Positions 18,791 through 26,906 of a DNA stretch of 50,826 nt are shown here, one piece after another. The stretch spans positions 1 through 50,826 of the forward strand of contig CAWJQC010000002.1 in the NCBI GenBank assembly GCA_963844965.1, given 5' to 3'. Made by a program: the position numbers and the translations under genes. This DNA comes from an uncultured bacterium. Its GTDB lineage: Bacteria > Patescibacteriota > Minisyncoccia > UBA6257 > 2-01-FULL-56-20. Position 1 is the stretch's first letter. Each line of letters opens with the position of its first letter. A model generated the notes under the pieces. The model was not told the origin of the DNA. It searched no databases and saw nothing but the letters and a program-made list of their open reading frames with translations.

Positions 18791-18855
18791 GTTTTTATCA
18801 TCGCACCAACGGCATTTTTTGACAATTCGCGGCGGAGTTTTATAATTCTTTGGTA

Positions 18856-20436
18856 TTAAAGGCGCGGGAGGGCTGGGGAAGGTTTTCTCCGGGGAGCCCC
18901 ATAAGCTCCTGAAGCGGGTTCAATTCCCGCCCCCGCAAATAAATGTGACCTATCTCCTGTAAACCCCCTGTTTAGCTCGAAGATGGGCGACAAAACAGCG
19001 GTTCCATACTTTCCGGTGGATTTATCAAAAATGATTCCACTCGGGAAGATTAACCTTTGGAATCGCTGTTTTTGTTCAACGTCCATGTCCTGCCACTGGC
19101 GAGCAGGGTCTCGCAGAAATTGAAAAGCGTAATCAAGGGACGCCTCGATGTTCAGTTCGTCGGTTTTGGTTTCGTTGTTCGATATTCTAATGCCTGCAAT
19201 CTGGTTTTCCAGGGATTCCTTAGTACCTAAAAACTCCTCTTTTGTTAGTTCGCCGTTTATCCGCATTTGCATAAGCCGTTCCTTTTTTGATTCCAGCAGC
19301 CGCAGTTCCTTTTCGTAGCCCTCTCCAGCGTTTTTAAGCTCGCCTTGCTGGTTTTGCCAGTTATCTATCACCACGGCCCTAAAAGCCGACAAAAACCCTT
19401 CTGTCGGCGTTACCTTGCGGAGTTTCTTAATAAATTCTTTTTCCAGCTCTTGTGCATCAATGCCCTGGTTTTTATGCTGGCAGCCTTCGTTATGGCACTC
19501 GTAATAGGCGTATTTCTTGTTTCTGCCGGTGTGCCAACTGCCGGTGAGTTTCCTACTACAAGGACACAGAACAAAGCGCCGCAAAGGAAAGTCGGGGTTT
19601 AATCGGAGGCGGGGGATATTCTTGATCCGCGAATAGTGGCTTTTTAGATATTGAATTTGCTCGTATTCCTCCGTGGCAATCATTGGCTGATGCAATCCCC
19701 TATATTCTTTACCCGTCCACGGATCAACCAAAATTCCGGCATAATACTTGTCCTTAAGTATTCTCTCGAAAAGTTGTTTAAACATCGGCTTGCCGGTCCT
19801 TGTTCTAAATCCCCACTGGTTCATTAGCTTGACTACTTCTTGCATCGAGCGGCCACCCTGTAAATAGGTTTTTAAGCCACGCTGGACGAGATCAAACCTT
19901 TCGGGGTCCGGCTCGTCCGGCCTTGTTTTCCTCCTGTCGCTTATTTTTTTGGCATGAATGTATCCGATGGGCGGTTGCCACGGCCAAATCCCCTCCATGA
20001 TTTTCCTTTGTAGACCGCCCTCGCAGCGCTGTTTTCTGATGTCATTCTCGAATTGAGCGTAACCGGCCAAAACCGCCTCGGTCATCTTGCCGATTGGATT
20101 GTCGCCAATTGGTTCGGTCACTGAGTGTAAGATTGTGCCGTATTTTACGAGCTGGGCTTGTAAGCCGTAATGGTCGGTTGTATTCCTTGCGAACCTATCT
20201 ATTTTCCAAACGATAAACGCTCCAATTTCTCCCTTATGTTCTCGGCAGTATTCCAGTGCTTTAATTAGTTCCGTTCTGTTAGCTGCCGTGGCCGATTCGC
20301 CCTTCTCAATAAAAATTTCGGTTATTTTGATACCTTTTTTTCCGGCGTATTCCAAGCAGGCCTGTTTTTGGTTATCCAGGCTTGTGCCGGAAACCTGCTC
20401 TTGACTTGATACGCGGCAATAAATGATTCCTTTCAT
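18856..20436 (-). CDS. Large serine recombinase (resolvase/invertase N-domain + recombinase domain + Zn ribbon)
   Basis: MKGIIYCRVSSQEQ catalytic-Ser region, FARNTTDHYGL, C-terminal CPCSRKL...YYECHNEGCQ zinc ribbon. Confidence 0.85.
   Translation of the reverse strand: MKGIIYCRVSSQEQVSGTSLDNQKQACLEYAGKKGIKITEIFIEKGESATAANRTELIKALEYCREHKGEIGAFIVWKIDRFARNTTDHYGLQAQLVKYGTILHSVTEPIGDNPIGKMTEAVLAGYAQFENDIRKQRCEGGLQRKIMEGIWPWQPPIGYIHAKKISDRRKTRPDEPDPERFDLVQRGLKTYLQGGRSMQEVVKLMNQWGFRTRTGKPMFKQLFERILKDKYYAGILVDPWTGKEYRGLHQPMIATEEYEQIQYLKSHYSRIKNIPRLRLNPDFPLRRFVLCPCSRKLTGSWHTGRNKKYAYYECHNEGCQHKNQGIDAQELEKEFIKKLRKVTPTEGFLSAFRAVVIDNWQNQQGELKNAGEGYEKELRLLESKKERLMQMRINGELTKEEFLGTKESLENQIAGIRISNNETKTDELNIEASLDYAFQFLRDPARQWQDMDVEQKQRFQRLIFPSGIIFDKSTGKYGTAVLSPIFELNRGFTGDRSHLFAGAGIEPASGAYGAPRRKPSPALPRL
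18873..18918 (+). other. tRNA-like 3' fragment (anticodon arm with CAT, 4-nt variable loop, T-arm, acceptor 3' strand). Probable attachment-site core.
   Basis: GGAGC-CCCATAA-GCTCC, TGAA, GCGGG-TTCAATT-CCCGC, CCCCGCA-A. No matching 5' acceptor strand or D-arm upstream. Confidence 0.4.
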
Positions 20437-20605
20437 GGTTTAAAAACTTAAAGGGACGGTCTGTATTGCCCAATCCACTTGCTCCGAAGAGTAGCCGTAT
20501 CGGCAGACCGCCCCTTTAAAAGGCGATACGACAATAAAAAACTCCTCGGATTTCCTTATGAATTGGGCAACGCTTTGATTATAACACATTTGAATATGTA
20601 TGCAA

Positions 20606-21430
20606 TTAGGAATTTTGTAATAAGATTTGTTTTACGATGCCCTGAAAATAGGCACGCTTATTTCTTATTCCTTTGTTTCTTAAATCCTCCCGAACAATAC
20701 CCCAGGCCTCTTCGATGACCCCAATCCCATGTTTCCGTAGAACGGCAAGAATGGGATTAATATGTTTTTCGCCCAGTTCGTTGGCTATATCCCGACATCG
20801 TTGTTCGTTTGAATTACCAGGATTAAAGGCTACTACCGTAGTTAATCGTTCTTCCTTCAAAGGCATTTTGCTACGATTAACGTATTTATAATTTTCTTTA
20901 TCAATATCAGTATCGTTATTAGCACCTCTGACCGGCGCATCAAAGCAATCTAAAGAAAAATGTTTTAAAATCGTCTCTTTTTGCTCTTCCAACGTCTGAC
21001 TGGGTGGGTTCAAGTTCTGCTTATCTTCTGACTGGGTACGCGCCTCCCCTGCGTCCTCACCTCTTACCCCGCCTCGTCCAAAGAAAACATCCAGTGTCTT
21101 TATTGTCCCGTCGGGACGCACCCAATAGTCCAAATGAACCTCAAACGAACCTCTGCGTCCCCTCCGCTCCTCGTAATAGATATACCTCTTACTCTTCAGT
21201 GATAAGACAACCCCATTTAAATAATTTATGCTTGGGCGCTTTGTGCCCTTATACAAATCGTTTCTAATATCTTCAAGGCTTATATCGGCACTTCCGTAAG
21301 GATTCCCGTATTGCCGGATATACATAAAGACCTTCCACTCATCTGGCGTTAATTTGCCCGACCGTAGATCTCGCCCTATTCGGCGCGGTGTTATGTAAAA
21401 ATCTTTTAATCCCTTTTTGTCCATTGCCAT
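20606..21430 (-). CDS. Replication-initiator-like protein (N-terminal wHTH, DnaD-like C-terminal region)
   Basis: LTPDEWKVFMYIRQYGNPYGSADISLEDI (wHTH-like) and INPILAVLRKHGIGVIEEAWGI...RAYFQGIVKQIL (DnaD-domain-like). Assignment by resemblance only. Confidence 0.4.
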   Translation of the reverse strand: MAMDKKGLKDFYITPRRIGRDLRSGKLTPDEWKVFMYIRQYGNPYGSADISLEDIRNDLYKGTKRPSINYLNGVVLSLKSKRYIYYEERRGRRGSFEVHLDYWVRPDGTIKTLDVFFGRGGVRGEDAGEARTQSEDKQNLNPPSQTLEEQKETILKHFSLDCFDAPVRGANNDTDIDKENYKYVNRSKMPLKEERLTTVVAFNPGNSNEQRCRDIANELGEKHINPILAVLRKHGIGVIEEAWGIVREDLRNKGIRNKRAYFQGIVKQILLQNS

Positions 21431-21507
21431 CTGCCGTTCCTGGCATCGGCCTTGGGTGAGCAGATGGCCTACTTACACCCAAAGCCAATGCCAAAAACCA
21501 AGTTATT

Positions 21508-21681
21508 TTAGGTTTGTAATGTTTTATAATTTTTCGCCTCTTTGCATTTGTGCTCCTTGCGATACTTCTCAAAAATGATGTCGGCAAGTTCATAGAGATC
21601 GTCTCTAATACGCCCCACCTCCTCATCGGAAAGGTTGGCTAAATTAAGGTCAATTTTTCTTAATTGTTCTATGGTAAGCAT
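21508..21681 (-). CDS. Small hypothetical protein (57 aa)
   Basis: MLTIEQLRKIDLNLANLSDEEVGRIRDDLYELADIIFEKYRKEHK. No motif recognised. Confidence 0.3.
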   Translation of the reverse strand: MLTIEQLRKIDLNLANLSDEEVGRIRDDLYELADIIFEKYRKEHKCKEAKNYKTLQT

Positions 21682-21996
21682 TGCCCCTTTTGGGGCTGCT
21701 CCCCTTAAACAAAAAGAAAACAACCCCTATTTGGTTGTTTCCCGCTTGCGAGACGGTGGGTACTACTTTGTTGAGCTTTCCAGCCCAAGTTGAGCCTCTC
21801 GGCCCAAAACCCATTGGCTTAATCATTCCGAGCCTCCGCCAGTATTTAGTTATATAGTAATTATACCATACTTTGGATTAAAAAAGCAAGGGCGGTGTAT
21901 ATTTGAAAAATCTTCAAGATAGGGGGTAGAATGTAAGTACAACTCAATATCAGCGGCCTAAACCATTTGACAACGGGTGGCATGGCACAAAAATCC

Positions 21997-22095
21997 TCCT
22001 TCCAGATACCAAACACCACGTTTGGCCTACTTCTGGAAGGAGGTCGCCCCGAAAGGGTGCGGGTGCCGCAAGGCATCGGGTCGGCGTGGTGTTTT
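21997..22095 (+). promoter_or_regulatory. Candidate structured 5' leader / riboswitch-like element ending in a terminator-like hairpin
   Basis: Nested hairpin CTTCCAGA-T-ACCAAAC-ACCAC-GTTTGG-CCTAC-TTCTGGAAG (21997-22038). Long-range pairing AACACCACG (22009-22017) with CGTGGTGTT followed by TTTGTG (22083-22095). Candidate promoter TTGAAA-N18-TAGAAT at ~21905-21935. Confidence 0.3.
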
Positions 22096-22097
22096 GT

Positions 22098-22306
22098 GTT
22101 ATATCGTGAAAACCTTTTTAAAAATAAATAAATCTTTGCTGATTATTCTTAGCTGCCTCGGTGCGGTCTGCTTCCTCGTGGGTTGGTGGCGAGAAGATTC
22201 AGTTTTATCCGGAGTCATTTTTGCCATTATATATTTCTTCGGAATGTCTGTACTCGGTATTCTTACAGGCGGTATATCTCTTAATAAACACATTGTAGAT
22301 GATTAA
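22098..22306 (+). CDS. Small hydrophobic membrane protein (~69 aa, GTG start assumed)
   Basis: VKTFLKINKSLLIILSCLGAVCFLVGWW...VIFAIIYFFGMSVLGILTGGISL: two TM helices. Confidence 0.3.
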
Positions 22307-22338
22307 AAGGTCGAGCCGATCTTAATTAAGATAAAACT

Positions 22339-22515
22339 ATGAAAAAATATTTACTGATAATTGCATTGGCAGTAATTTTGCTTGGTAGTTTTGGGTTTGC
22401 TCAAGCTCGTGGTCGTTACGGCAGTTTCCGAGTTGGGGGTTACACGAGTCACGGCAAGGGCAGCCACTACGTAGGAGGTTATGTAAGGTCGTGCCATTTC
22501 CCATTCTGTTGGTAG
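22339..22515 (+). CDS. Small secreted Gly/Tyr/Cys-containing peptide (58 aa)
   Basis: MKKYLLIIALAVILLGSFGFAQA signal peptide, then RGRYGSFRVGGYTSHGKGSHYVGGYVRSCHFPFCW. Below the ORF-track size cut-off; read directly from sequence. Confidence 0.4.
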   Translation: MKKYLLIIALAVILLGSFGFAQARGRYGSFRVGGYTSHGKGSHYVGGYVRSCHFPFCW

Positions 22516-22519
22516 AATT

Positions 22520-22825
22520 ATGAATTTATTAAAACGAAATTGGAAAAATATAGCGATTTGGACGGTTGTTTTAGCTGTGGTTTTTGGGATTTATTCCTAC
22601 TATCACTGGTATGTTCCTTATTGGGATTTGAAACACGGGTTCGTGATGGTTAGTGGGTTCGATTGTCCGAGCGATCATCCGATTAAGGCTCACTTGGGAA
22701 GCATGATTTACCACCTACCAGGCGACCCTTACTATGCCAGAACCAGCGCATCAAACGGGGAATGTTTCGATACGGCCGACCACGCGGTTATGCAGGGATT
22801 TAGAGCACCATTTAATTATCGATAA
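22520..22825 (+). CDS. TM-anchored small Cys-containing domain protein
   Basis: TM helix IAIWTVVLAVVFGIYSYY, then DCPSDHPIKAHLGSMIYHLPGDPYYARTSASNGECFDT. Confidence 0.45.
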   Translation: MNLLKRNWKNIAIWTVVLAVVFGIYSYYHWYVPYWDLKHGFVMVSGFDCPSDHPIKAHLGSMIYHLPGDPYYARTSASNGECFDTADHAVMQGFRAPFNYR

Positions 22826-22841
22826 TACTTTAATAAATATA

Positions 22842-23819
22842 ATGAAAAGGGGGTTTGTTGCTATCGCCCTCATAATCTTTGGCTTGACGAGCTTTAGTGT
22901 TGCGGGAGCAATCTCCGGCGCTTGTTCTTCACATGGCGGGGTAAATTGTGATGCTGGCCCGGACGCATTTGGCTATGCTCAGTGCAACGATGAATGGACG
23001 AGCTCGGTAAGTTTTTATTCAGTGGACGAGTGTAATTCCAGCCCGACCATTAACTGCGCCCCACCTATCGCCATAGGATGTGTGGAACAGGGCTCGCTTC
23101 AGGCATATCAAAACAGCTATGCTCAATGGCAACAAAGTTGTCAGCAGGCCGCCATGCGAAGCGGCAATTCCCCAAATTGTACTGACCCTGCTTCAGAACA
23201 ACGTATTGCGACTTGTCAGCAAGAAATTCAATCATGGCAAATGCAACAACAAGCATATAATACCTGCGTCCGAAATGCCGAGGACATGCTCCTCAAGGTG
23301 GATTCTCAAAAACAACAGCTTGAATCAGAGCAACAAAATCAAGAGTTACAAAATGTAGCAAATGAAACTAAGTTGGTTCACGACGAAATGGTGAAGGCGC
23401 AGAATGACTTAGCGTGTCTTAAAAAGTACTCCGATTCTCATTCAGACCCATCAAATCCTGGTCAGTGTTTGTGCGACGACGGCTATCAATTCGCCACCAG
23501 CGTTTTCGACCAATCTAAAACAATCTGCATTTTGAGTCACGCTTTTTCTATTTTTTATAATCAAAATCTGAATGAGGTGGCTACCTCAAGTCCGGCCAAG
23601 ATACAAAAAATCAAGAACCCATTTTCGCAAAAACAAAAGTCGAGGCTGGACACAATTTGGGGCGCCACTTCGTCATCTGCAACGACCTCTTTGAACTCCA
23701 CCTCAGCTTCTGCTCTGGCAACAACCTCATCTCGGCCCGAAGTCAATAAATCAGGACAACTTCCGCCTAACGATGTTTGGTGGAAAAAGATTTTGAGATG
23801 GTTCGGATTGATGAGATAA
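22842..23819 (+). CDS. Secreted Cys-rich, Gln-rich coiled-coil protein
   Basis: Signal peptide MKRGFVAIALIIFGLTSFSVAGA. At least 14 Cys in the N-terminal half. QQ-rich heptad region. Confidence 0.5.
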   Translation: MKRGFVAIALIIFGLTSFSVAGAISGACSSHGGVNCDAGPDAFGYAQCNDEWTSSVSFYSVDECNSSPTINCAPPIAIGCVEQGSLQAYQNSYAQWQQSCQQAAMRSGNSPNCTDPASEQRIATCQQEIQSWQMQQQAYNTCVRNAEDMLLKVDSQKQQLESEQQNQELQNVANETKLVHDEMVKAQNDLACLKKYSDSHSDPSNPGQCLCDDGYQFATSVFDQSKTICILSHAFSIFYNQNLNEVATSSPAKIQKIKNPFSQKQKSRLDTIWGATSSSATTSLNSTSASALATTSSRPEVNKSGQLPPNDVWWKKILRWFGLMR

Positions 23820-23828
23820 AGCCGAAAT

Positions 23829-24206
23829 TTACTTTTGATGGTTTTTTTCTCTAATCTTTCTCGCCATCCTTATGGCTTCTAAGAAAGTGAGGGATGGGTC
23901 GCTGTTTATGTTTAATTTCTCCGGCGGTTTAAATCCGGCTCTATCAAGTATGTCCCGCGAAGCATGAAGCCTCACGTTCTCGTTTTTTGCCTCCTGCGAT
24001 AACTTATAAACCATAGACGCGGCATCCTCCGCCTTCTCGTCTAAATACGCCCTAATCGCAGGTTTTCGTAGGTTCTCTGCCCCTATAGAGTGCGCCGTGT
24101 TGCGATTCTTGGGCTTATAGGCGCGACTGGCGGCTTCCGTGGCGTTTCCCGTCCCAAGATACTCATTAGCGAATTTTTGTTGCCTGAGCGTCATGTTATT
24201 TTTCAT
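23829..24206 (-). CDS. Phage terminase small-subunit-like protein (Terminase_2-type N-terminus)
   Basis: MTLRQQKFANEYLGTGNATEAASRAYKPKNRNTAHSIGAENLRKPAIRAYLDEK matches the TerS consensus LT.KQ..F..EYL...NAT.AA..AGYS.K.A...GS.LL..P.V..YI. Confidence 0.65.
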   Translation of the reverse strand: MKNNMTLRQQKFANEYLGTGNATEAASRAYKPKNRNTAHSIGAENLRKPAIRAYLDEKAEDAASMVYKLSQEAKNENVRLHASRDILDRAGFKPPEKLNINSDPSLTFLEAIRMARKIREKNHQK

Positions 24207-24299
24207 ATCACGATAAGACTATCTATGCCGGTGCGCAGGATACGACTGCCTGTTGTAATGCTTTCCACCCCTGCAATTCCCTCACAATTTGTTTCCAAT

Positions 24300-24780
24300 T
24301 GCGTAACACTTCCGCAAATGGCCCCAACTTTCTGTTTTTGAGAACCGGCGTCGTGAATGCTCCGGCGGCATTCGTGCGCCTGCATCTCGGCGGCAAAACT
24401 TTTGCTTTGCAAAAGACCAAGCTTTCGCCGCCTCCGATAGCTTCTCAAAAACAGAAAGTTTCCGCTGTAGGTTTTATTGTGTTTTGCCCTTGGCAAAACA
24501 GCAATTTAATTGAGGCGGGAATTGGACACGAAAGGGGGTCGGGGAAAAGTGCCAGGGTTTCCCCGTCGAGGTGACCGAGCGGAGCGAGCGAGTAGTGAAG
24601 TCTCCCGCCCCCGCAAATGGCTCCAGTTTTCGTTTCGCGAGGGTCGCGTCGTTTTCTGCTGAAAACGCGCTGCATCTCGTCGCCTTCGCTCCTGCGATAC
24701 ACCCTTGCGAAACGAAAACTTCCGCTGTGGTAGTAAGGTGTTTCGCTCGCGCGAAACGGCTTTATTATGGGCAGCCCCGG
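24300..24780. repeat. Non-coding region made of two diverged tandem ~290-bp units. Contains the right-hand att repeat and a copy of the GGGTCGGGGAAA..GTTTCCCC element family.
   Basis: Paired segments GCAAATGGCCCCAACTTTCTGTTTTTGAG (24309) / GCAAATGGCTCCAGTTTTCGTTTCGCGAG (24611), CGCCTGCATCTCGGCGGC / CGCGCTGCATCTCGTCGCC, GAAAGTTTCCGCTGTAGG / GAAAACTTCCGCTGTGGTAG. Confidence 0.4.
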
Positions 24781-24800
24781 TTTTTTGATAGAATAAACAC

Positions 24801-25512
24801 ATGACGAGAGAACAAGTTTTAGAGTTATTGAAACAAAATCTTTCTAACCGGAATCTGGTCAAACATTGTCTCGCGGTGGAGGCCGTGATGAGAGACCTTG
24901 GCCCGCCGTTTTGGGGAGGACGAAGAAAAGTGGGGGATGGCAGGGATATTGCACGACATTGATTACGAAAAAACGAAAGACAACCCAAGCCAGCATTCTT
25001 TGGTCGGAGCCCAGATGCTTGAAGATGCGGGGTTAGACAAGGAAATTTGCCAGGCGATAAGGGCTCATAACGCGACGCACGGAATTCCCTTGAATACGCC
25101 GATGGACAAGGCCTTATTCGTCGCAGATCCCATAACTGGTTTGATAGTGGCCGCCACTTTGGTCTTGCCCTCAAGAAGGATAGCTGATTTGACCGCCGAA
25201 AATGTTCTGAATCGTTTCCATGAGAAATCTTTTGCGAAAGGAGCGAACAGGGAAATAATCAAGCGATGCGAGGAACTTCTGGATATTAAGCTGGAAGAAT
25301 TCGCCGATATCAGCGTCAAGGCGATGCAGCGGTATCGGCGGCGAACTGGGACTTTGATTTCCATTAAAATTCTGATATTGCCGAGCCGAAAGCCGCAGCA
25401 AAGTTTCGGTGGTTTGTTTCGGTTGTATAGCGCTTCTGTTGCAAAAGAAAAGTCCGCCACAAGTGGCGGACAGAGTGGCGGACAGAGAGGCGAATCGCTT
25501 TTCGTTAAGTAA
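24801..25512 (+). CDS. HD-domain phosphohydrolase (HDIG-type) with an apparent 1-nt frameshift near 24893
   Basis: Frame 1: MTREQVLELLKQNLSNRNLVKHCLAVEAVMRDL. Frame 3: ARRFGEDEEKWGMAGILHDIDYEKT...: HD motif split across frames. Confidence 0.65.
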
Positions 25513-26522: not shown

Positions 26523-26719
26523 AAAGCGACCCCAAAGCCCTGGGGCCGCTATTTATTTGATTGGAAAAATATTTTAGGCGCTCTATCTCTCTTGGGACCA
26601 TGATTGTGTAAAGCGAGATTTTGTGGTAAAAATTATTTAAGCCGGCGTAGCTCCCCGAGGCAAAACCTTCGGTTTGCAACGGGGCAGGCAGGGCAAGCGT
26701 TTCACCCGCCCAAATTTCT

Positions 26720-26906
26720 GGCTGGATAGCTCAGCGGTAGAGCAGACGTTTTTCACCCGCCCACCTTTTATGCCAGGGTAGCTCAGCGGCAGAGCAGACG
26801 TTTCATAAGCGTCGGGTCGTGGGTTCGACTCCCACCCCTGGCACTAAGCAAAAAGGTGGGCGGGCAAGTAAGCGTCGGGTCGTGGGTTCGACTCCCACTC
26901 CAGCCA
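26720..26906 (+). tRNA. Split/interrupted tRNA gene: exon 1 is 26720-26755, exon 2 is 26871-26906, and a 115-nt intervening sequence contains a whole second tRNA
   Basis: GGCTGGA-TA-GCTC-AGCGGTA-GAGC-A-GACGT-TTTTCA ... A-GCGTC-GGGTC-GTGGG-TTCGACT-CCCAC-TCCAGCC-A. Acceptor and anticodon stems pair perfectly across the interruption. Confidence 0.5.
26772..26843 (+). tRNA. tRNA with anticodon CAT (elongator Met or Ile2-lysidine type; G1-C72 paired, so not initiator-like)
   Basis: GCCAGGG-TA-GCTC-AGCGGCA-GAGC-A-GACGT-TTCATAA-GCGTC-GGGTC-GTGGG-TTCGACT-CCCAC-CCCTGGC-A: canonical cloverleaf, no encoded CCA. Confidence 0.85.

What the first reader, a model, noticed from the sequence alone, without database searches (positions are those of the whole stretch)
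18841..24620. Compact ~5.8-kb integrated element with serine recombinase, Rep-like protein and TerS only (phage satellite / PICI-like?)
The boundaries are a 16-bp direct repeat TCCCGCCCCCGCAAAT (18905-18920 and 24603-24618), with extended imperfect similarity around it (GGTTTTCTCCGGGG.. / GGGTTTCCCCGTCG..). The left repeat is the 3' end of a tRNA-like fragment (anticodon arm CAT, T-arm, acceptor 3' strand at 18873-18918) that overlaps the recombinase stop. Cargo genes: a large serine recombinase (18856-20436), a wHTH/DnaD-like replication-initiator-like protein (20606-21430), a small protein, a structured leader plus a small membrane protein, a secreted Gly/Tyr/Cys peptide, a TM Cys-domain protein, a secreted Cys/Gln-rich coiled-coil protein, and a terminase small-subunit-like gene (23829-24206). 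No capsid, portal, large-terminase or tail genes are present. Integrase + replication initiator + TerS without structural genes is the defining architecture of phage-inducible chromosomal islands and related satellites (established for Firmicutes and Proteobacteria). A satellite of this kind in a CPR-type genome would be new; this is inference.
Basis: partly seen in the sequence, partly recalled or inferred. Interest (0 to 1): 0.65.

Follow-up and report, generated by a model that had tools for sequence, protein, structure and literature searches.

The report
Small satellite-like mobile element in CPR
A 5.4-kb mobile DNA element sits at the end of an unusual tRNA-like gene in a tiny "candidate phyla" bacterium; it carries an integration enzyme, a lone phage DNA-packaging gene and a structured RNA (LOOT) of unknown function, and belongs to a recurring, undescribed family that may parasitise phages.

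Summary
The insertion is real. Related genomes carry the tRNA-like gene joined directly to the sequence that follows the element here (empty sites L023, L013, L014). The large serine recombinase (LSR) and the terminase small subunit (TerS) pass profile tests. The "Rep-like" protein does not: it is a winged-helix protein from a large unannotated family (455 clusters), with only sub-threshold hints of replication-initiator families.

It is probably part of a native host tandem array. The likelier right junction is the 8-bp CCGCAAAT at 24312-24319, which gives a 5.38-kb element. The "tRNA fragment" is a complete, conserved, non-canonical tRNA-like gene.

The same layout recurs in about 15 loci from Parcubacteria and Saccharibacteria. 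The LSR abuts a tRNA or tmRNA. A wHTH protein lies beside it. A LOOT RNA (Rfam RF03000) heads a divergent cargo operon. In the TerS-bearing subset, an orphan TerS lies at the far end and is never beside a TerL. LOOT was absent from 786 kb of control CPR DNA.

A phage-satellite lifestyle is the best reading, but it is inferred: there is no evidence of packaging or of a helper phage.

The parts
18819..18846 (+). Perfect sigma70-type promoter (TTGACA-16-TATAAT) of the host tRNA-like gene. This is host DNA, not part of the element.
   Evidence: 12 of 12 matches
18864..18936 (+). Host tRNA-like gene with anticodon CAT, C33, and a 5-6 bp D stem with a 4-nt loop. It is the integration target, and its 3' end carries the att core.
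   Evidence: Cloverleaf fold. Rfam tRNA-Sec model scores only 27.4 bits, and ARAGORN is negative. 87-94% identical copies lie next to murD in more than 12 loci. Compensatory changes occur in the anticodon and T stems (A3).
18933..18940 (.). attL core CCGCAAAT. The 16-bp version, TCCCGCCCCCGCAAAT, spans 18925-18940.
   Evidence: read
18856..20436 (-). Large serine recombinase, 526 aa as integrated. Its last ~25 codons are read from host DNA antisense to the tRNA-like gene. It would be 530 aa in the excised circle under the 8-bp core model.
   Evidence: Pfam Resolvase, Recombinase and Zn_ribbon_recom. PHROG_95 integrase 1.4e-78. The N-terminal YCRVSSQEQ motif is visible. Circle ORF computed.
20439..20579 (-). 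Conserved ~140-nt structured element immediately upstream of the LSR start, beginning just after an extended -10-like TGTGTTATAAT. It is a candidate regulatory leader. The 49-aa ORF called here is probably spurious.
   Evidence: 72-75% DNA identity in L099, L093 and L001 although their LSRs are only ~25-30% identical. Consensus fold has 5 compensatory pairs. Own covariance model R2 also finds it in L004, always just 5' of the LSR. No Rfam hit.
20606..21430 (-). 274-aa two-domain DNA-binding protein ('Rep-like'): an N-terminal winged helix (about residues 10-120), a disordered linker, and a C-terminal four-helix domain (about 195-274). Possible replication initiator or organiser, or the element's regulator.
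21436..21498 (-). Strong 63-nt hairpin between the small ORF and the start of the 274-aa gene.
   Evidence: Spurious mir-942 match that exposes the hairpin. 84% conserved in L004/L005.
21508..21681 (-). Small protein of 57 aa counted from Met15 of the listed 71-aa ORF. It resembles the ~60-aa 'F3' proteins that precede the Rep-like gene in other members.
   Evidence: similarity to the F3 proteins is judged by eye
21903..21932 (+). Promoter-like site (TTGAAA-18-TAGAAT) about 20 nt upstream of LOOT.
21942..22110 (+). LOOT RNA (Rfam match 21955-22077) plus a conserved 3' extension. The extension pairs with the apical part of stem 2 and ends in a U-run. The RNA heads the cargo operon, divergent from the Rep/LSR genes.
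   Evidence: RF03000 74.1 bits against a gathering score of 46.4. Extension helix: 94% of cells paired, 11 of 21 pairs compensatory, slid controls 39-53%. RNAalifold predicts the same helix. Model R1 scores 108 bits.
22106..22306 (+). 66-aa protein with two hydrophobic (probable transmembrane) stretches; first cargo gene, GTG start 9 nt after the LOOT U-run.
   Evidence: no family hit
22339..22515 (+). 58-aa Gly/Tyr-rich peptide with a signal-peptide-like N-terminus.
   Evidence: weak homologue in L004
22520..22825 (+). 101-aa protein with a hydrophobic N-terminal (probable membrane-anchor) segment.
   Evidence: PHROG_33759 at E 0.002 only
22842..23819 (+). 325-aa Cys/Gln-rich protein with a signal-peptide-like N-terminus, counted from the internal Met of the 361-aa ORF.
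   Evidence: no Pfam, PHROG or PADLOC family
23829..24206 (-). Orphan terminase small subunit, 125 aa. It is the last gene of the element and points the same way as the LSR. In the excised circle it would lie 16 nt downstream of the LSR stop.
   Evidence: Terminase_2 5.1e-14. PHROG_51 8.6e-18 and PHROG_2538 covering the C-terminal half. Matches in 178 phage records, 16 covering at least 80% of the query. Circle geometry.
24312..24319 (.). Preferred attR core CCGCAAAT. Homology to the empty sites starts exactly here. The reconstructed attP has 8/12 inverted symmetry in the arms flanking this core.
24312..24618 (+). Host-type 'post-tRNA unit' copy A (24312-24495) plus segment X (24496-24602) plus the second 16-bp core (24603-24618). 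Probably native host tandem array rather than element DNA. The alternative right boundary lies here.
   Evidence: L014 has the same array (tRNA-like, unit, X, core, unit) and no element. 77% identity to L013. 19-bp perfect closing stem in the unit.

Best explanation
This is a 5.4-kb integrative mobile element. It measures 5.38 kb between the 8-bp cores and 5.68 kb if the 16-bp repeat is the junction. It is inserted by its own large serine recombinase (LSR) at the 3' end of a conserved, expressed tRNA-like gene next to murD in a Parcubacteria-type CPR genome.

It belongs to a recurrent, undescribed class of 4-8 kb (occasionally ~12 kb) CPR elements with a fixed layout:
- a target tRNA, tmRNA or tRNA-like gene;
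- an LSR gene whose last codons cross the att site;
- often a conserved structured leader upstream of the LSR;
- a ~260-280-aa winged-helix protein with small partner ORFs;
- a divergent promoter region;
- a LOOT RNA heading a cargo operon of secreted, membrane or defence proteins;
- in one subset, including this element, an orphan TerS at the far end, pointing the same way as the LSR.

Most likely mechanism (inferred). The element excises as a circle by LSR-mediated attL x attR recombination. Circularisation places TerS directly downstream of the LSR, 16 nt after its stop. TerS is therefore made mainly by read-through from the Rep/LSR operon once the element is free. The winged-helix protein drives or organises replication. 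TerS then recruits the large terminase and capsids of an infecting CPR phage to package element DNA. That makes this a minimal pac-type phage satellite. LOOT acts as a terminator-bearing leader or small RNA that gates the cargo operon.

Shown: the insertion, the family, the LSR, the orphan TerS and the LOOT association. Inferred: excision, replication, packaging and the regulatory roles.
For: Insertion:
- L023 and L013 join the tRNA-like gene directly to the sequence that follows the element here. L014 shows the whole native array without an element.
- In relatives, murD and pheS are 0.2-1.4 kb apart with 1-2 tRNA-Met genes between them. Here they are 9.7 kb apart.

LSR and TerS: profile hits are above curated cut-offs.

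Family:
- Every one of 10 loci found through the 274-aa protein has an LSR downstream. The LSR 3' end overlaps or abuts tRNA-Asp, tRNA-Asn or tRNA-His.
- L011 has 21-22-bp repeats of the tRNA-Asn 3' end. In L097 the LSR overlaps the tmRNA 3' end.

Orphan TerS:
- All six contexts of TerS homologues (51-75% identity) show TerS, then cargo on the opposite strand, then an HTH protein, then an LSR. None has a TerL.
- IMG/VR phage homologues (47-53% identity; L101, L104, L105) have a TerL immediately downstream.

LOOT:
- It is present in 10 of ~15 elements, always heading the cargo operon.
- It gave 0 hits in 786 kb of murD-anchored CPR loci.
- Two of the three IMG/VR LOOT contigs have an adjacent LSR.

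Circle geometry: the LSR stop would fall 16 nt before the TerS ATG. No sigma70-like promoter was found upstream of TerS on its strand.

Precedent: environmental phage satellites with serine recombinases and TerS homologues have been described (PMC9618062).
Against: - There is no direct evidence of excision, replication or encapsidation. No reads were available, and no circular contig was found.
- No helper phage was identified. The 274-aa family is absent from IMG/VR and from GenBank phages.
- TerS is not universal. Only 2 of the 10 elements found through the Rep-like protein carry one, and the two belong to different TerS families, Terminase_2 and GP3_package.
- The replication role of the 274-aa protein rests on sub-threshold hits and a generic fold. 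No clear iterons were found.
- A 5.4-kb genome would have to be packaged as a concatemer or in very small capsids.
- The in-frame continuation of the LSR across attP for 29 codons is not statistically unusual.
- The right boundary is ambiguous (8-bp against 16-bp core).
Confidence: 0.5

Rival explanations
1. It is an LSR integrative island that is not a phage satellite. The TerS-like protein has been co-opted as the recombination directionality factor (excisionase) or as a DNA-binding regulator of the LSR. Transfer, if any, is by natural transformation, vesicles or generalised transduction. The payload of secreted or defence genes is the selective reason for the element's existence.
For: - TerS homologues of this clade always co-occur with an LSR in small elements.
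- RDFs of large serine integrases are structurally diverse and are often moonlighting phage proteins (PMC11795197).
- The N-terminal half of TerS is an HTH DNA-binding domain, and this is the strongest part of the Pfam match (residues 5-64).
- Most relatives found through the Rep-like protein lack any TerS. The element class therefore does not depend on it.
- Cargo in relatives includes restriction-modification systems, a NACHT NTPase and a Panacea-domain protein.
Against: - The protein is a full-length TerS homologue, including the C-terminal oligomerisation half (PHROG_2538 residues 52-105; 86-87% coverage to phage TerS).
- Two unrelated TerS families (Terminase_2 and GP3_package) occur in the same element class. 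This is easier to explain by selection for packaging than for RDF activity.
- Its placement downstream of the LSR in the circle suggests expression after excision, not before it.
Confidence: 0.27
2. It is an integrative plasmid-like episome. The 274-aa protein is a bona fide initiator, and the element alternates between a chromosomal state and an autonomously replicating circular state. TerS is a leftover or accessory gene.
For: - The two-domain architecture (wHTH plus a helical C-terminal domain) resembles DnaD or phage replication organisers. Weak hits to DnaB_2, HTH_36, Phage_rep_O and Rep3_N support this.
- Short repeats lie in the DNA that encodes the linker (TCTGACTGGGT twice at 20995/21027). 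The lambda origin lies inside gene O in a similar way (established knowledge).
- The 6.1-kb and 5.4-kb contigs L004 and L005 end about 30 bp after the LSR. This fits an assembly break at an att site.
Against: - No curated replication family reaches threshold.
- No partition or copy-control genes were found, and no circular contig.
- The TerS clade is conserved at 51-77% identity across many elements. That argues it is under selection rather than a relic.
- Some members (L092, L258) have an LSR, LOOT and cargo with no Rep-like gene at all.
Confidence: 0.15
3. It is a decayed remnant of a full-size prophage that has lost its structural genes.
For: It carries an integrase next to a tRNA-type site plus a TerS, and three LOOT-bearing relatives are listed as 'viral' contigs in IMG/VR.
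Against: - The same compact gene order, with intact ORFs, recurs in about 15 loci from several CPR classes, at different tRNA or tmRNA sites and with different host flanks.
- No structural-gene fragments lie within the boundaries.
- The boundaries are tight: 5.4 kb between the att cores.
Confidence: 0.05

Closest known systems
Phage-inducible chromosomal islands (PICIs, e.g. SaPIs) with their own TerS
   Same: Site-specific integration. There are no virion structural genes. The integration and DNA-binding/replication genes form one transcription unit, and an orphan TerS homologue sits at the end distal to the integrase. Accessory cargo is present. TerS is homologous to phage TerS, but no TerL is present.
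   Different: The integrase is a serine recombinase, not a tyrosine integrase. The element is 5.4 kb rather than ~10-15 kb. No recognisable Stl-type repressor, primase-helicase or capsid-remodelling genes were found. The host is a CPR bacterium. An RNA (LOOT) is a signature component. Helper dependence is untested.
Environmental minimal satellites: VEIMEs (PMC9618062) and, from my own recollection, PICMIs of marine vibrios
   Same: They are small integrative elements without capsid genes. Some VEIME modules are dominated by serine recombinases, and some carry TerS homologues closest to co-occurring phage TerS (PMC9618062).
   Different: VEIMEs were defined by physical recovery as concatemers from virions, which is not available here. 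Their hosts are marine Proteobacteria, Cyanobacteria and others, not CPR. No LOOT RNA or this 274-aa family is reported for them.
PLE of Vibrio cholerae (established knowledge; also noted in PMC9618062 as the reference satellite with a serine recombinase)
   Same: It is a satellite that integrates with a large serine recombinase and carries its own wHTH-type replication initiator.
   Different: PLE is ~18 kb and has many more genes. It relies on a helper-phage protein as RDF. It has no TerS of this kind and does not target a tRNA.
SCC elements (ccr large serine recombinases) of staphylococci (established knowledge)
   Same: LSR-mediated insertion at the extreme 3' end of a conserved housekeeping gene. 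Short direct repeats (~15 bp) flank the element, and tandem or composite arrays can form at the site (compare the three repeats in L011). The cargo is variable.
   Different: SCC elements are 20-60 kb. They have no TerS and no Rep-like/LOOT module. Their target is rlmH, not a tRNA-type gene.
Satellite phage P4 CI RNA immunity (established knowledge)
   Same: A small structured RNA is made from the leader of an operon of a satellite and controls downstream transcription by termination. This is analogous to LOOT, with its U-run, in front of the cargo operon.
   Different: There is no sequence or structure relationship. The LOOT mechanism is untested.

Membership tests
Large serine recombinase (integrase) | N-terminal resolvase catalytic domain with the nucleophilic Ser, followed by the Recombinase domain and the zinc-ribbon domain | tested here: met
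   PF00239 107 bits, PF07508 27.4 bits and PF13408 26.9 bits, all above their cut-offs. YCRVSSQEQ motif at residues 6-14. PHROG_95 1.4e-78.
Large serine recombinase (integrase) | Catalyses attP x attB integration at short sites with a small central core | not testable with these tools
   Only indirect support. The 8-bp shared core CCGCAAAT is flanked by arms with 8/12 inverted symmetry in the reconstructed attP. Empty sites exist.
Terminase small subunit (Terminase_2) | Sequence membership above the curated threshold and full-length similarity to phage TerS | tested here: met
   PF03592 53.5 bits against a cut-off of 26.1. PHROG_51 and PHROG_2538. 16 phage records cover at least 80% of the query and are annotated TerS.
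Terminase small subunit (Terminase_2) | Encoded next to, and acting with, a large terminase subunit | tested here: not met
   No TerL lies in the element or beside any of the six close homologues. Phage homologues in L101, L104 and L105 do have one. Hence 'orphan TerS'.
Phage satellite / PICI | Integrase and flanking att sites; the element is absent from related genomes | tested here: met
   The integrase is serine-type, unlike the tyrosine integrases classical PICIs use (my recollection, not checked here).
Phage satellite / PICI | No genes for capsid, portal, tail or TerL | tested here: met
   Pfam and PHROG scans of all ORFs.
Phage satellite / PICI | Own replication module (initiator or primase plus origin) | tested here: inconclusive
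   The 274-aa protein is a wHTH fold with only sub-threshold matches to replication families. No convincing iterons were found.
Phage satellite / PICI | Packaging-hijack function (own TerS, a cos site or capsid remodelling) | tested here: met
   Orphan TerS. Its function is inferred, not shown.
Phage satellite / PICI | Induction by, and encapsidation in virions of, a helper phage | not testable with these tools
   No reads, virome data or helper phage were available. The 274-aa family is absent from IMG/VR.
Phage satellite / PICI | Typical PICI size (~10-15 kb) and an Stl/Str-type regulatory switch | tested here: not met
   The element is 5.4 kb. No repressor family was detected.
LOOT RNA (Rfam RF03000) | Covariance-model score above the gathering threshold over the full model | tested here: met
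   74.1 bits against 46.4, model positions 1-121.
DnaD / DnaB_2 / Rep_3 / phage O replication initiators | Profile match above the curated threshold, or a specific structural match | tested here: not met
tRNA (for the integration target) | Canonical cloverleaf recognised by tRNA models | tested here: inconclusive
   ARAGORN is negative. The best Rfam match is tRNA-Sec at 27.4 bits, below its gathering score of 47. However, the cloverleaf folds, covariation occurs in two arms, and the gene has its own promoter.

The most novel reading that the evidence does not exclude
CPR bacteria host a phylum-wide family of minimal (4-8 kb) phage satellites built on a large serine recombinase. LOOT, an orphan RNA motif known only from candidate phyla, would be their signature regulatory RNA, gating a cargo or late operon through a pseudoknot/terminator switch. 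The orphan TerS would be switched on by circularisation, through LSR-to-TerS read-through across attP. This would be the first satellite system in CPR, and it would give the first biological context for LOOT and for a 455-cluster protein family of unknown function.
Probability: 0.3. Interest if true: 0.8.

Novelty: new variant of a known kind. Interest (0 to 1): 0.66.

Why it matters
Little is known about the mobile elements and viruses of CPR/Patescibacteria. I found no paper describing phage satellites, or this element class, in them.

If these elements are satellites, tripartite parasitism (satellite, phage, ultra-small episymbiotic bacterium) would extend to a major branch of bacteria. They would also be among the smallest satellite architectures described.

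Several results stand whatever the lifestyle:
- LOOT RNA gains a genomic context, as a component of LSR mobile elements, and a longer structure with a covarying 3' helix.
- A second conserved structured motif lies upstream of LSR genes.
- A large unannotated protein family is tied to these elements.
- A conserved non-canonical tRNA-like gene is a hot spot for LSR elements.

The many divergent LSRs with identifiable tRNA or tmRNA attachment sites are also potential genome-engineering reagents.

Tried and rejected
- Exact-sequence look-ups of the window's LSR, GIY-YIG and 274-aa proteins found nothing on record.
- An IMG/VR scan with the 274-aa family profile found no relative. tblastn against GenBank phages found none either.
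- PDB sequence searches with 19- and 108-member profiles gave nothing meaningful.
- PADLOC on the window cargo gave no defence family; the only hit was a JetC match at E 0.008.
- PHROGs on cargo of relatives matched endolysin families only through the PG-binding domain. I dropped the 'lysis cassette' idea as unproven.
- PHROGs and Pfam on mid-size ORFs of TerS-less relatives revealed no hidden TerS.
- A free search for inverted symmetry in the reconstructed attP was not significant. Only the a-priori register test favours the 8-bp core.
- The idea that segment X is a decayed copy of the tRNA-like gene is not statistically supported outside the core.
- The 10-bp repeats near the tRNA in L001 and L003 were judged possibly chance. 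The L003 repeat conflicts with cargo shared with L011.
- I considered LOOT as a guide RNA for the recombinase. I dropped this because I saw no complementarity to the att core; the CGCAA is a conserved GNRA loop.
- I could not retrieve the original description of LOOT. The main text of PMC5737381 does not discuss it and no supplements are held. My recollection that the name refers to the lineages OD1, OP11 and TM7 is unverified.

Full report
**1. What is in the sequence**

The 16-mer TCCCGCCCCCGCAAAT occurs exactly twice in the window, at 18925-18940 and 24603-24618.

Between the two copies, all on the minus strand unless stated, lie:
- a 526-aa large serine recombinase (LSR), 18856-20436;
- a 274-aa protein, 20606-21430;
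- a small ORF;
- a plus-strand block of four small or secreted proteins;
- a 125-aa terminase small subunit (TerS), 23829-24206.

Profile searches confirm the LSR (Resolvase 9.6e-31 plus Recombinase and Zn_ribbon_recom; PHROG_95 1.4e-78). They also confirm TerS (Terminase_2 53.5 bits against a cut-off of 26.1; PHROG_51 and PHROG_2538). tblastn finds the TerS in 178 phage records. Sixteen of these cover at least 80% of it, and the listed ones are annotated as terminase small subunit. No capsid, portal, tail or TerL family is hit.

**2. The integration target is a real gene, not a fragment**

Positions 18864-18936 fold into a cloverleaf with anticodon CAT. ARAGORN misses it, and Rfam places it only weakly under tRNA-Sec because of its long D stem.

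Three lines of evidence show it is a functional gene:
- A perfect TTGACA-16-TATAAT promoter precedes it.
- Copies 87-94% identical lie next to murD in more than a dozen related metagenome loci whose MurD proteins are only 45-59% identical.
- The alignment shows compensatory changes in the anticodon and T stems.

The surrounding locus is a hot spot. In relatives, pheS and murD are separated by 0.2-1.4 kb holding one or two tRNA-Met genes. Here they are 9.7 kb apart. Other LSR genes sit at the same place in L040 and L042.

PheS places the genome in the Parcubacteria/Paceibacterota part of the CPR.

**3. The insertion is proven, but the boundary needs revision**

In L023 and L013 the tRNA-like gene is followed directly by sequence homologous to window 24619-24800, or to 24312-24495. 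These are empty sites.

They hold a second, diverged copy of the host's 'post-tRNA unit' and then a segment X that ends in the 16-bp core. L014 has no recombinase and only housekeeping neighbours, yet it carries the same arrangement natively: tRNA-like, unit, X, core, unit. The 16-bp repeat is therefore most simply a feature of a host tandem array.

The better right junction is the 8-bp CCGCAAAT at 24312-24319, identical to 18933-18940. Homology to the empty sites starts exactly there. An attP rebuilt on this core has flanking arms TGCGTAACACTT and AAATGTGACCTA, with 8/12 inverted symmetry in the predefined register. My hand count for the 16-bp model in the same register gives 2/12; one search did not list that register among its top hits. 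A free search for symmetry was not significant.

I put about 70% on the 5.38-kb element and about 30% on the 5.68-kb version.

**4. It is one member of a recurrent family**

The 274-aa protein has no Pfam or PHROG match. It does have 19 close relatives and 455 cluster representatives in an exhaustive profile search.

I examined ten loci. Six came from metagenomes and four from named MAGs: Brennerbacteria, Harrisonbacteria, Saccharibacteria and Nomurabacteria. One further locus came from an unnamed 'uncultured bacterium' MAG. In every one, the gene is followed by a small ORF and an LSR.

The LSR's 3' end overlaps or abuts a tRNA on the opposite strand: Asp, Asn or His. In L008 and L010 it abuts a group I intron.

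The LSRs are far more divergent (24-31% identity) than the 274-aa proteins (32-71%). This points to module exchange and to different target specificities. Host flanks differ between loci. L011 carries three 21-22-bp copies of the tRNA-Asn 3' end, which delimit a 7.8-kb element plus a second island.

Cargo varies: PG-binding proteins, a type III restriction-modification system with a Panacea-domain protein, a 1548-aa NACHT NTPase and a Dam methylase.

**5. The orphan TerS**

TerS homologues at 51-77% identity are numerous. I looked up six of their contexts. All six (51-75% identity) show the same layout:
- TerS at one end;
- cargo on the opposite strand (PG_binding_1, Trypsin_2 or unknown proteins);
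- small ORFs, in L093 including DUF5659, and in four of the six a mid-size protein that is HTH-type where annotated (MerR_1 in L097, HTH_36 in L099);
- an LSR co-directional with TerS at the other end, next to a tRNA or the tmRNA.

No large terminase is nearby in any of them.

In contrast, more distant homologues in IMG/VR phage contigs (47-53% identity; L101, L104, L105) are immediately followed by a TerL.

L003 carries a different TerS family, GP3_package, in the same element class. However, only 2 of the 10 elements found through the Rep-like protein have any TerS.

**6. LOOT and a second RNA motif**

LOOT is present in 10 of ~15 elements. It always heads the cargo operon, divergent from the Rep/LSR genes. 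In the window it is preceded by a TTGAAA-18-TAGAAT promoter.

An alignment of nine copies reveals a 3' extension beyond the Rfam model. It forms a ~20-bp helix with the apical part of stem 2 and ends in a U-run. In this helix 94% of cells are paired, 11 of 21 pairs show compensatory change, and slid controls give 39-53%. RNAalifold finds the same helix independently.

A covariance model that includes the extension gave these results:
- no hit in 786 kb of murD-anchored CPR DNA;
- one more copy in L093;
- three copies in IMG/VR contigs, two of them next to an LSR.

Separately, the 140 nt upstream of the LSR start (20439-20579) form a conserved long helix. My own model finds it in five elements, always just 5' of otherwise divergent LSR genes. 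It has no Rfam match.

**7. The 'Rep-like' protein**

The AF2 model (pLDDT 71) shows an N-terminal winged helix, a disordered linker and a C-terminal four-helix domain.

Across 108 relatives, the only recurrent replication-related Pfam hits are sub-threshold: HTH_36 in 5, DnaB_2 in 3, Phage_rep_O in 3 and Rep3_N in 1. These families all point the same way, but the claim remains unproven.

In L217 a protein joins an HTH_36-type N-terminus to the C-terminal domain of this family. The family is therefore modular.

**8. Mechanism**

Shown: LSR-type site-specific insertion at the 3' end of a tRNA-like gene, and membership of a mobile, modular family.

Inferred: excision to a circle. In the 8-bp model the LSR ORF becomes 530 aa, and its stop lies 16 nt upstream of the TerS start codon. 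No sigma70-like promoter precedes TerS in the integrated state. TerS would therefore be expressed mainly from the Rep/LSR operon after circularisation.

An orphan TerS in an element without structural genes is the defining logic of pac-type satellites (PICIs). Environmental satellites with serine recombinases and TerS homologues are documented (PMC9618062). I therefore favour a minimal phage satellite (about 0.5).

The main rival (about 0.27) is that the TerS-like protein is the LSR's directionality factor or a regulator. This is plausible because LSR RDFs are diverse moonlighting proteins (PMC11795197).

A plasmid-like episome (about 0.15) and a decayed prophage (about 0.05) are less likely.

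**9. Novelty**

Three literature searches found no paper on satellites or this element class in CPR. They also found no functional context for LOOT.

I rate the element a new variant of a known kind: a satellite-like, LSR-based integrative element. The attached observations are of independent interest: LOOT's context and extended structure, the LSR leader motif, the tRNA-like target, and a 455-cluster protein family.

Noticed in passing
window 26701-26906: A complete tRNA-Met(CAT), 26772-26844, lies inside what reads as a second tRNA split at its anticodon loop. The 5' half is 26720-26749 and the 3' half is 26870-26906. The two acceptor stems differ by compensatory changes (GGCTGGA/TCCAGCC against GCCAGGG/CCCTGGC). 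The spacers around the inner tRNA form an inverted repeat, CACCCGCCCACCTTTT / AAAAGGTGGGCGGG. Relatives have two adjacent tRNA-Met genes here instead.
   Followed up: no
window 18864-18936 and homologues in L013, L022, L023, L027, L028, L031, L034, L040, L050, L053, L060, L064, L070: A conserved non-canonical tRNA-like RNA with anticodon CAU. It has C33 instead of U33 and a 5-6-bp D stem with a 4-nt loop. ARAGORN misses it, and it falls below the Rfam tRNA thresholds, yet it is 87-94% conserved and shows covariation. It may be an unusual CAU tRNA of Parcubacteria.
   Followed up: partly
window 24312-24800; L014 9250-9770 (minus strand); L013 9287-9462; L023 9333-9440: A ~150-180-nt 'post-tRNA unit' follows the tRNA-like gene in many relatives. 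It has a long closing stem (19 bp and perfect in copy A; a different sequence but still paired in copy B) and the conserved motifs TGCATCTC, CTCCGATAGC and AAACTTCCGCTG. It is tandemly duplicated here and in L014, separated by a structured segment X that ends with the tRNA-like 3' end. There is no Rfam match. It may be an unknown ncRNA.
   Followed up: partly
window 24801-25512: The HD-domain gene just right of the element is split by a frameshift. The N-terminal ORF is 24801-24962, and the remainder, 24898-25512, is in another frame. This is either a pseudogene or an assembly error.
   Followed up: no
window 20439-20579 (-); L099 14275-14415; L093 13254-13395; L001 11388-11520; L004 4234-4373: A conserved ~140-nt structured motif lies immediately upstream of LSR genes whose proteins are only ~25-30% identical. 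It has no Rfam match and is a candidate new cis-regulatory RNA, or a DNA site, of LSR elements.
   Followed up: partly
alignment A4 columns 76-96 and 150-170 (window 22008-22020 with 22085-22097): LOOT RNAs in these elements have a covarying 3' helix outside the Rfam RF03000 model. It competes with, or forms a pseudoknot with, the inner hairpin of stem 2, and it ends in a U-run.
   Followed up: yes
L011 84-105, 4617-4637, 12410-12431: Three copies of the 21-22-bp 3' end of tRNA-Asn occur in a Nomurabacteria MAG. They delimit a 7.8-kb LSR/Rep-like/LOOT element plus a second 4.5-kb island in tandem.
   Followed up: partly
L097 14972-15290; L010 4679-4975; L008 12994-13186: LSR 3' ends overlap a tmRNA gene in L097. 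In L010 and L008 they abut group I introns (61.7 and 42.3 bits), possibly within intron-containing tRNA genes. The target range of these LSRs therefore includes tmRNA and perhaps interrupted tRNAs.
   Followed up: no
L040 388-1764 and L042 838-2058: Other, unrelated LSR genes (24-27% identity) lie beside the same tRNA-like / tRNA-Met / murD site in two metagenome contigs. The site is a recurrent LSR hot spot.
   Followed up: no
window 20995-21005 and 21027-21037: An exact 11-bp repeat, TCTGACTGGGT, occurs twice, 32 bp apart, inside the DNA that encodes the disordered linker of the 274-aa protein. This is where an internal origin would lie if the arrangement is like lambda gene O. Two copies only, so it could be chance.
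   Followed up: no
L217 (IMGVR_UViG_3300050034_000404) and L258 (IMGVR_UViG_3300028581_003725): IMG/VR lists as viral two contigs that carry LOOT, an LSR and cargo of this element class. L258 has only an LSR, LOOT and cargo within about 2.5 kb, which suggests an even more minimal form.
   Followed up: partly
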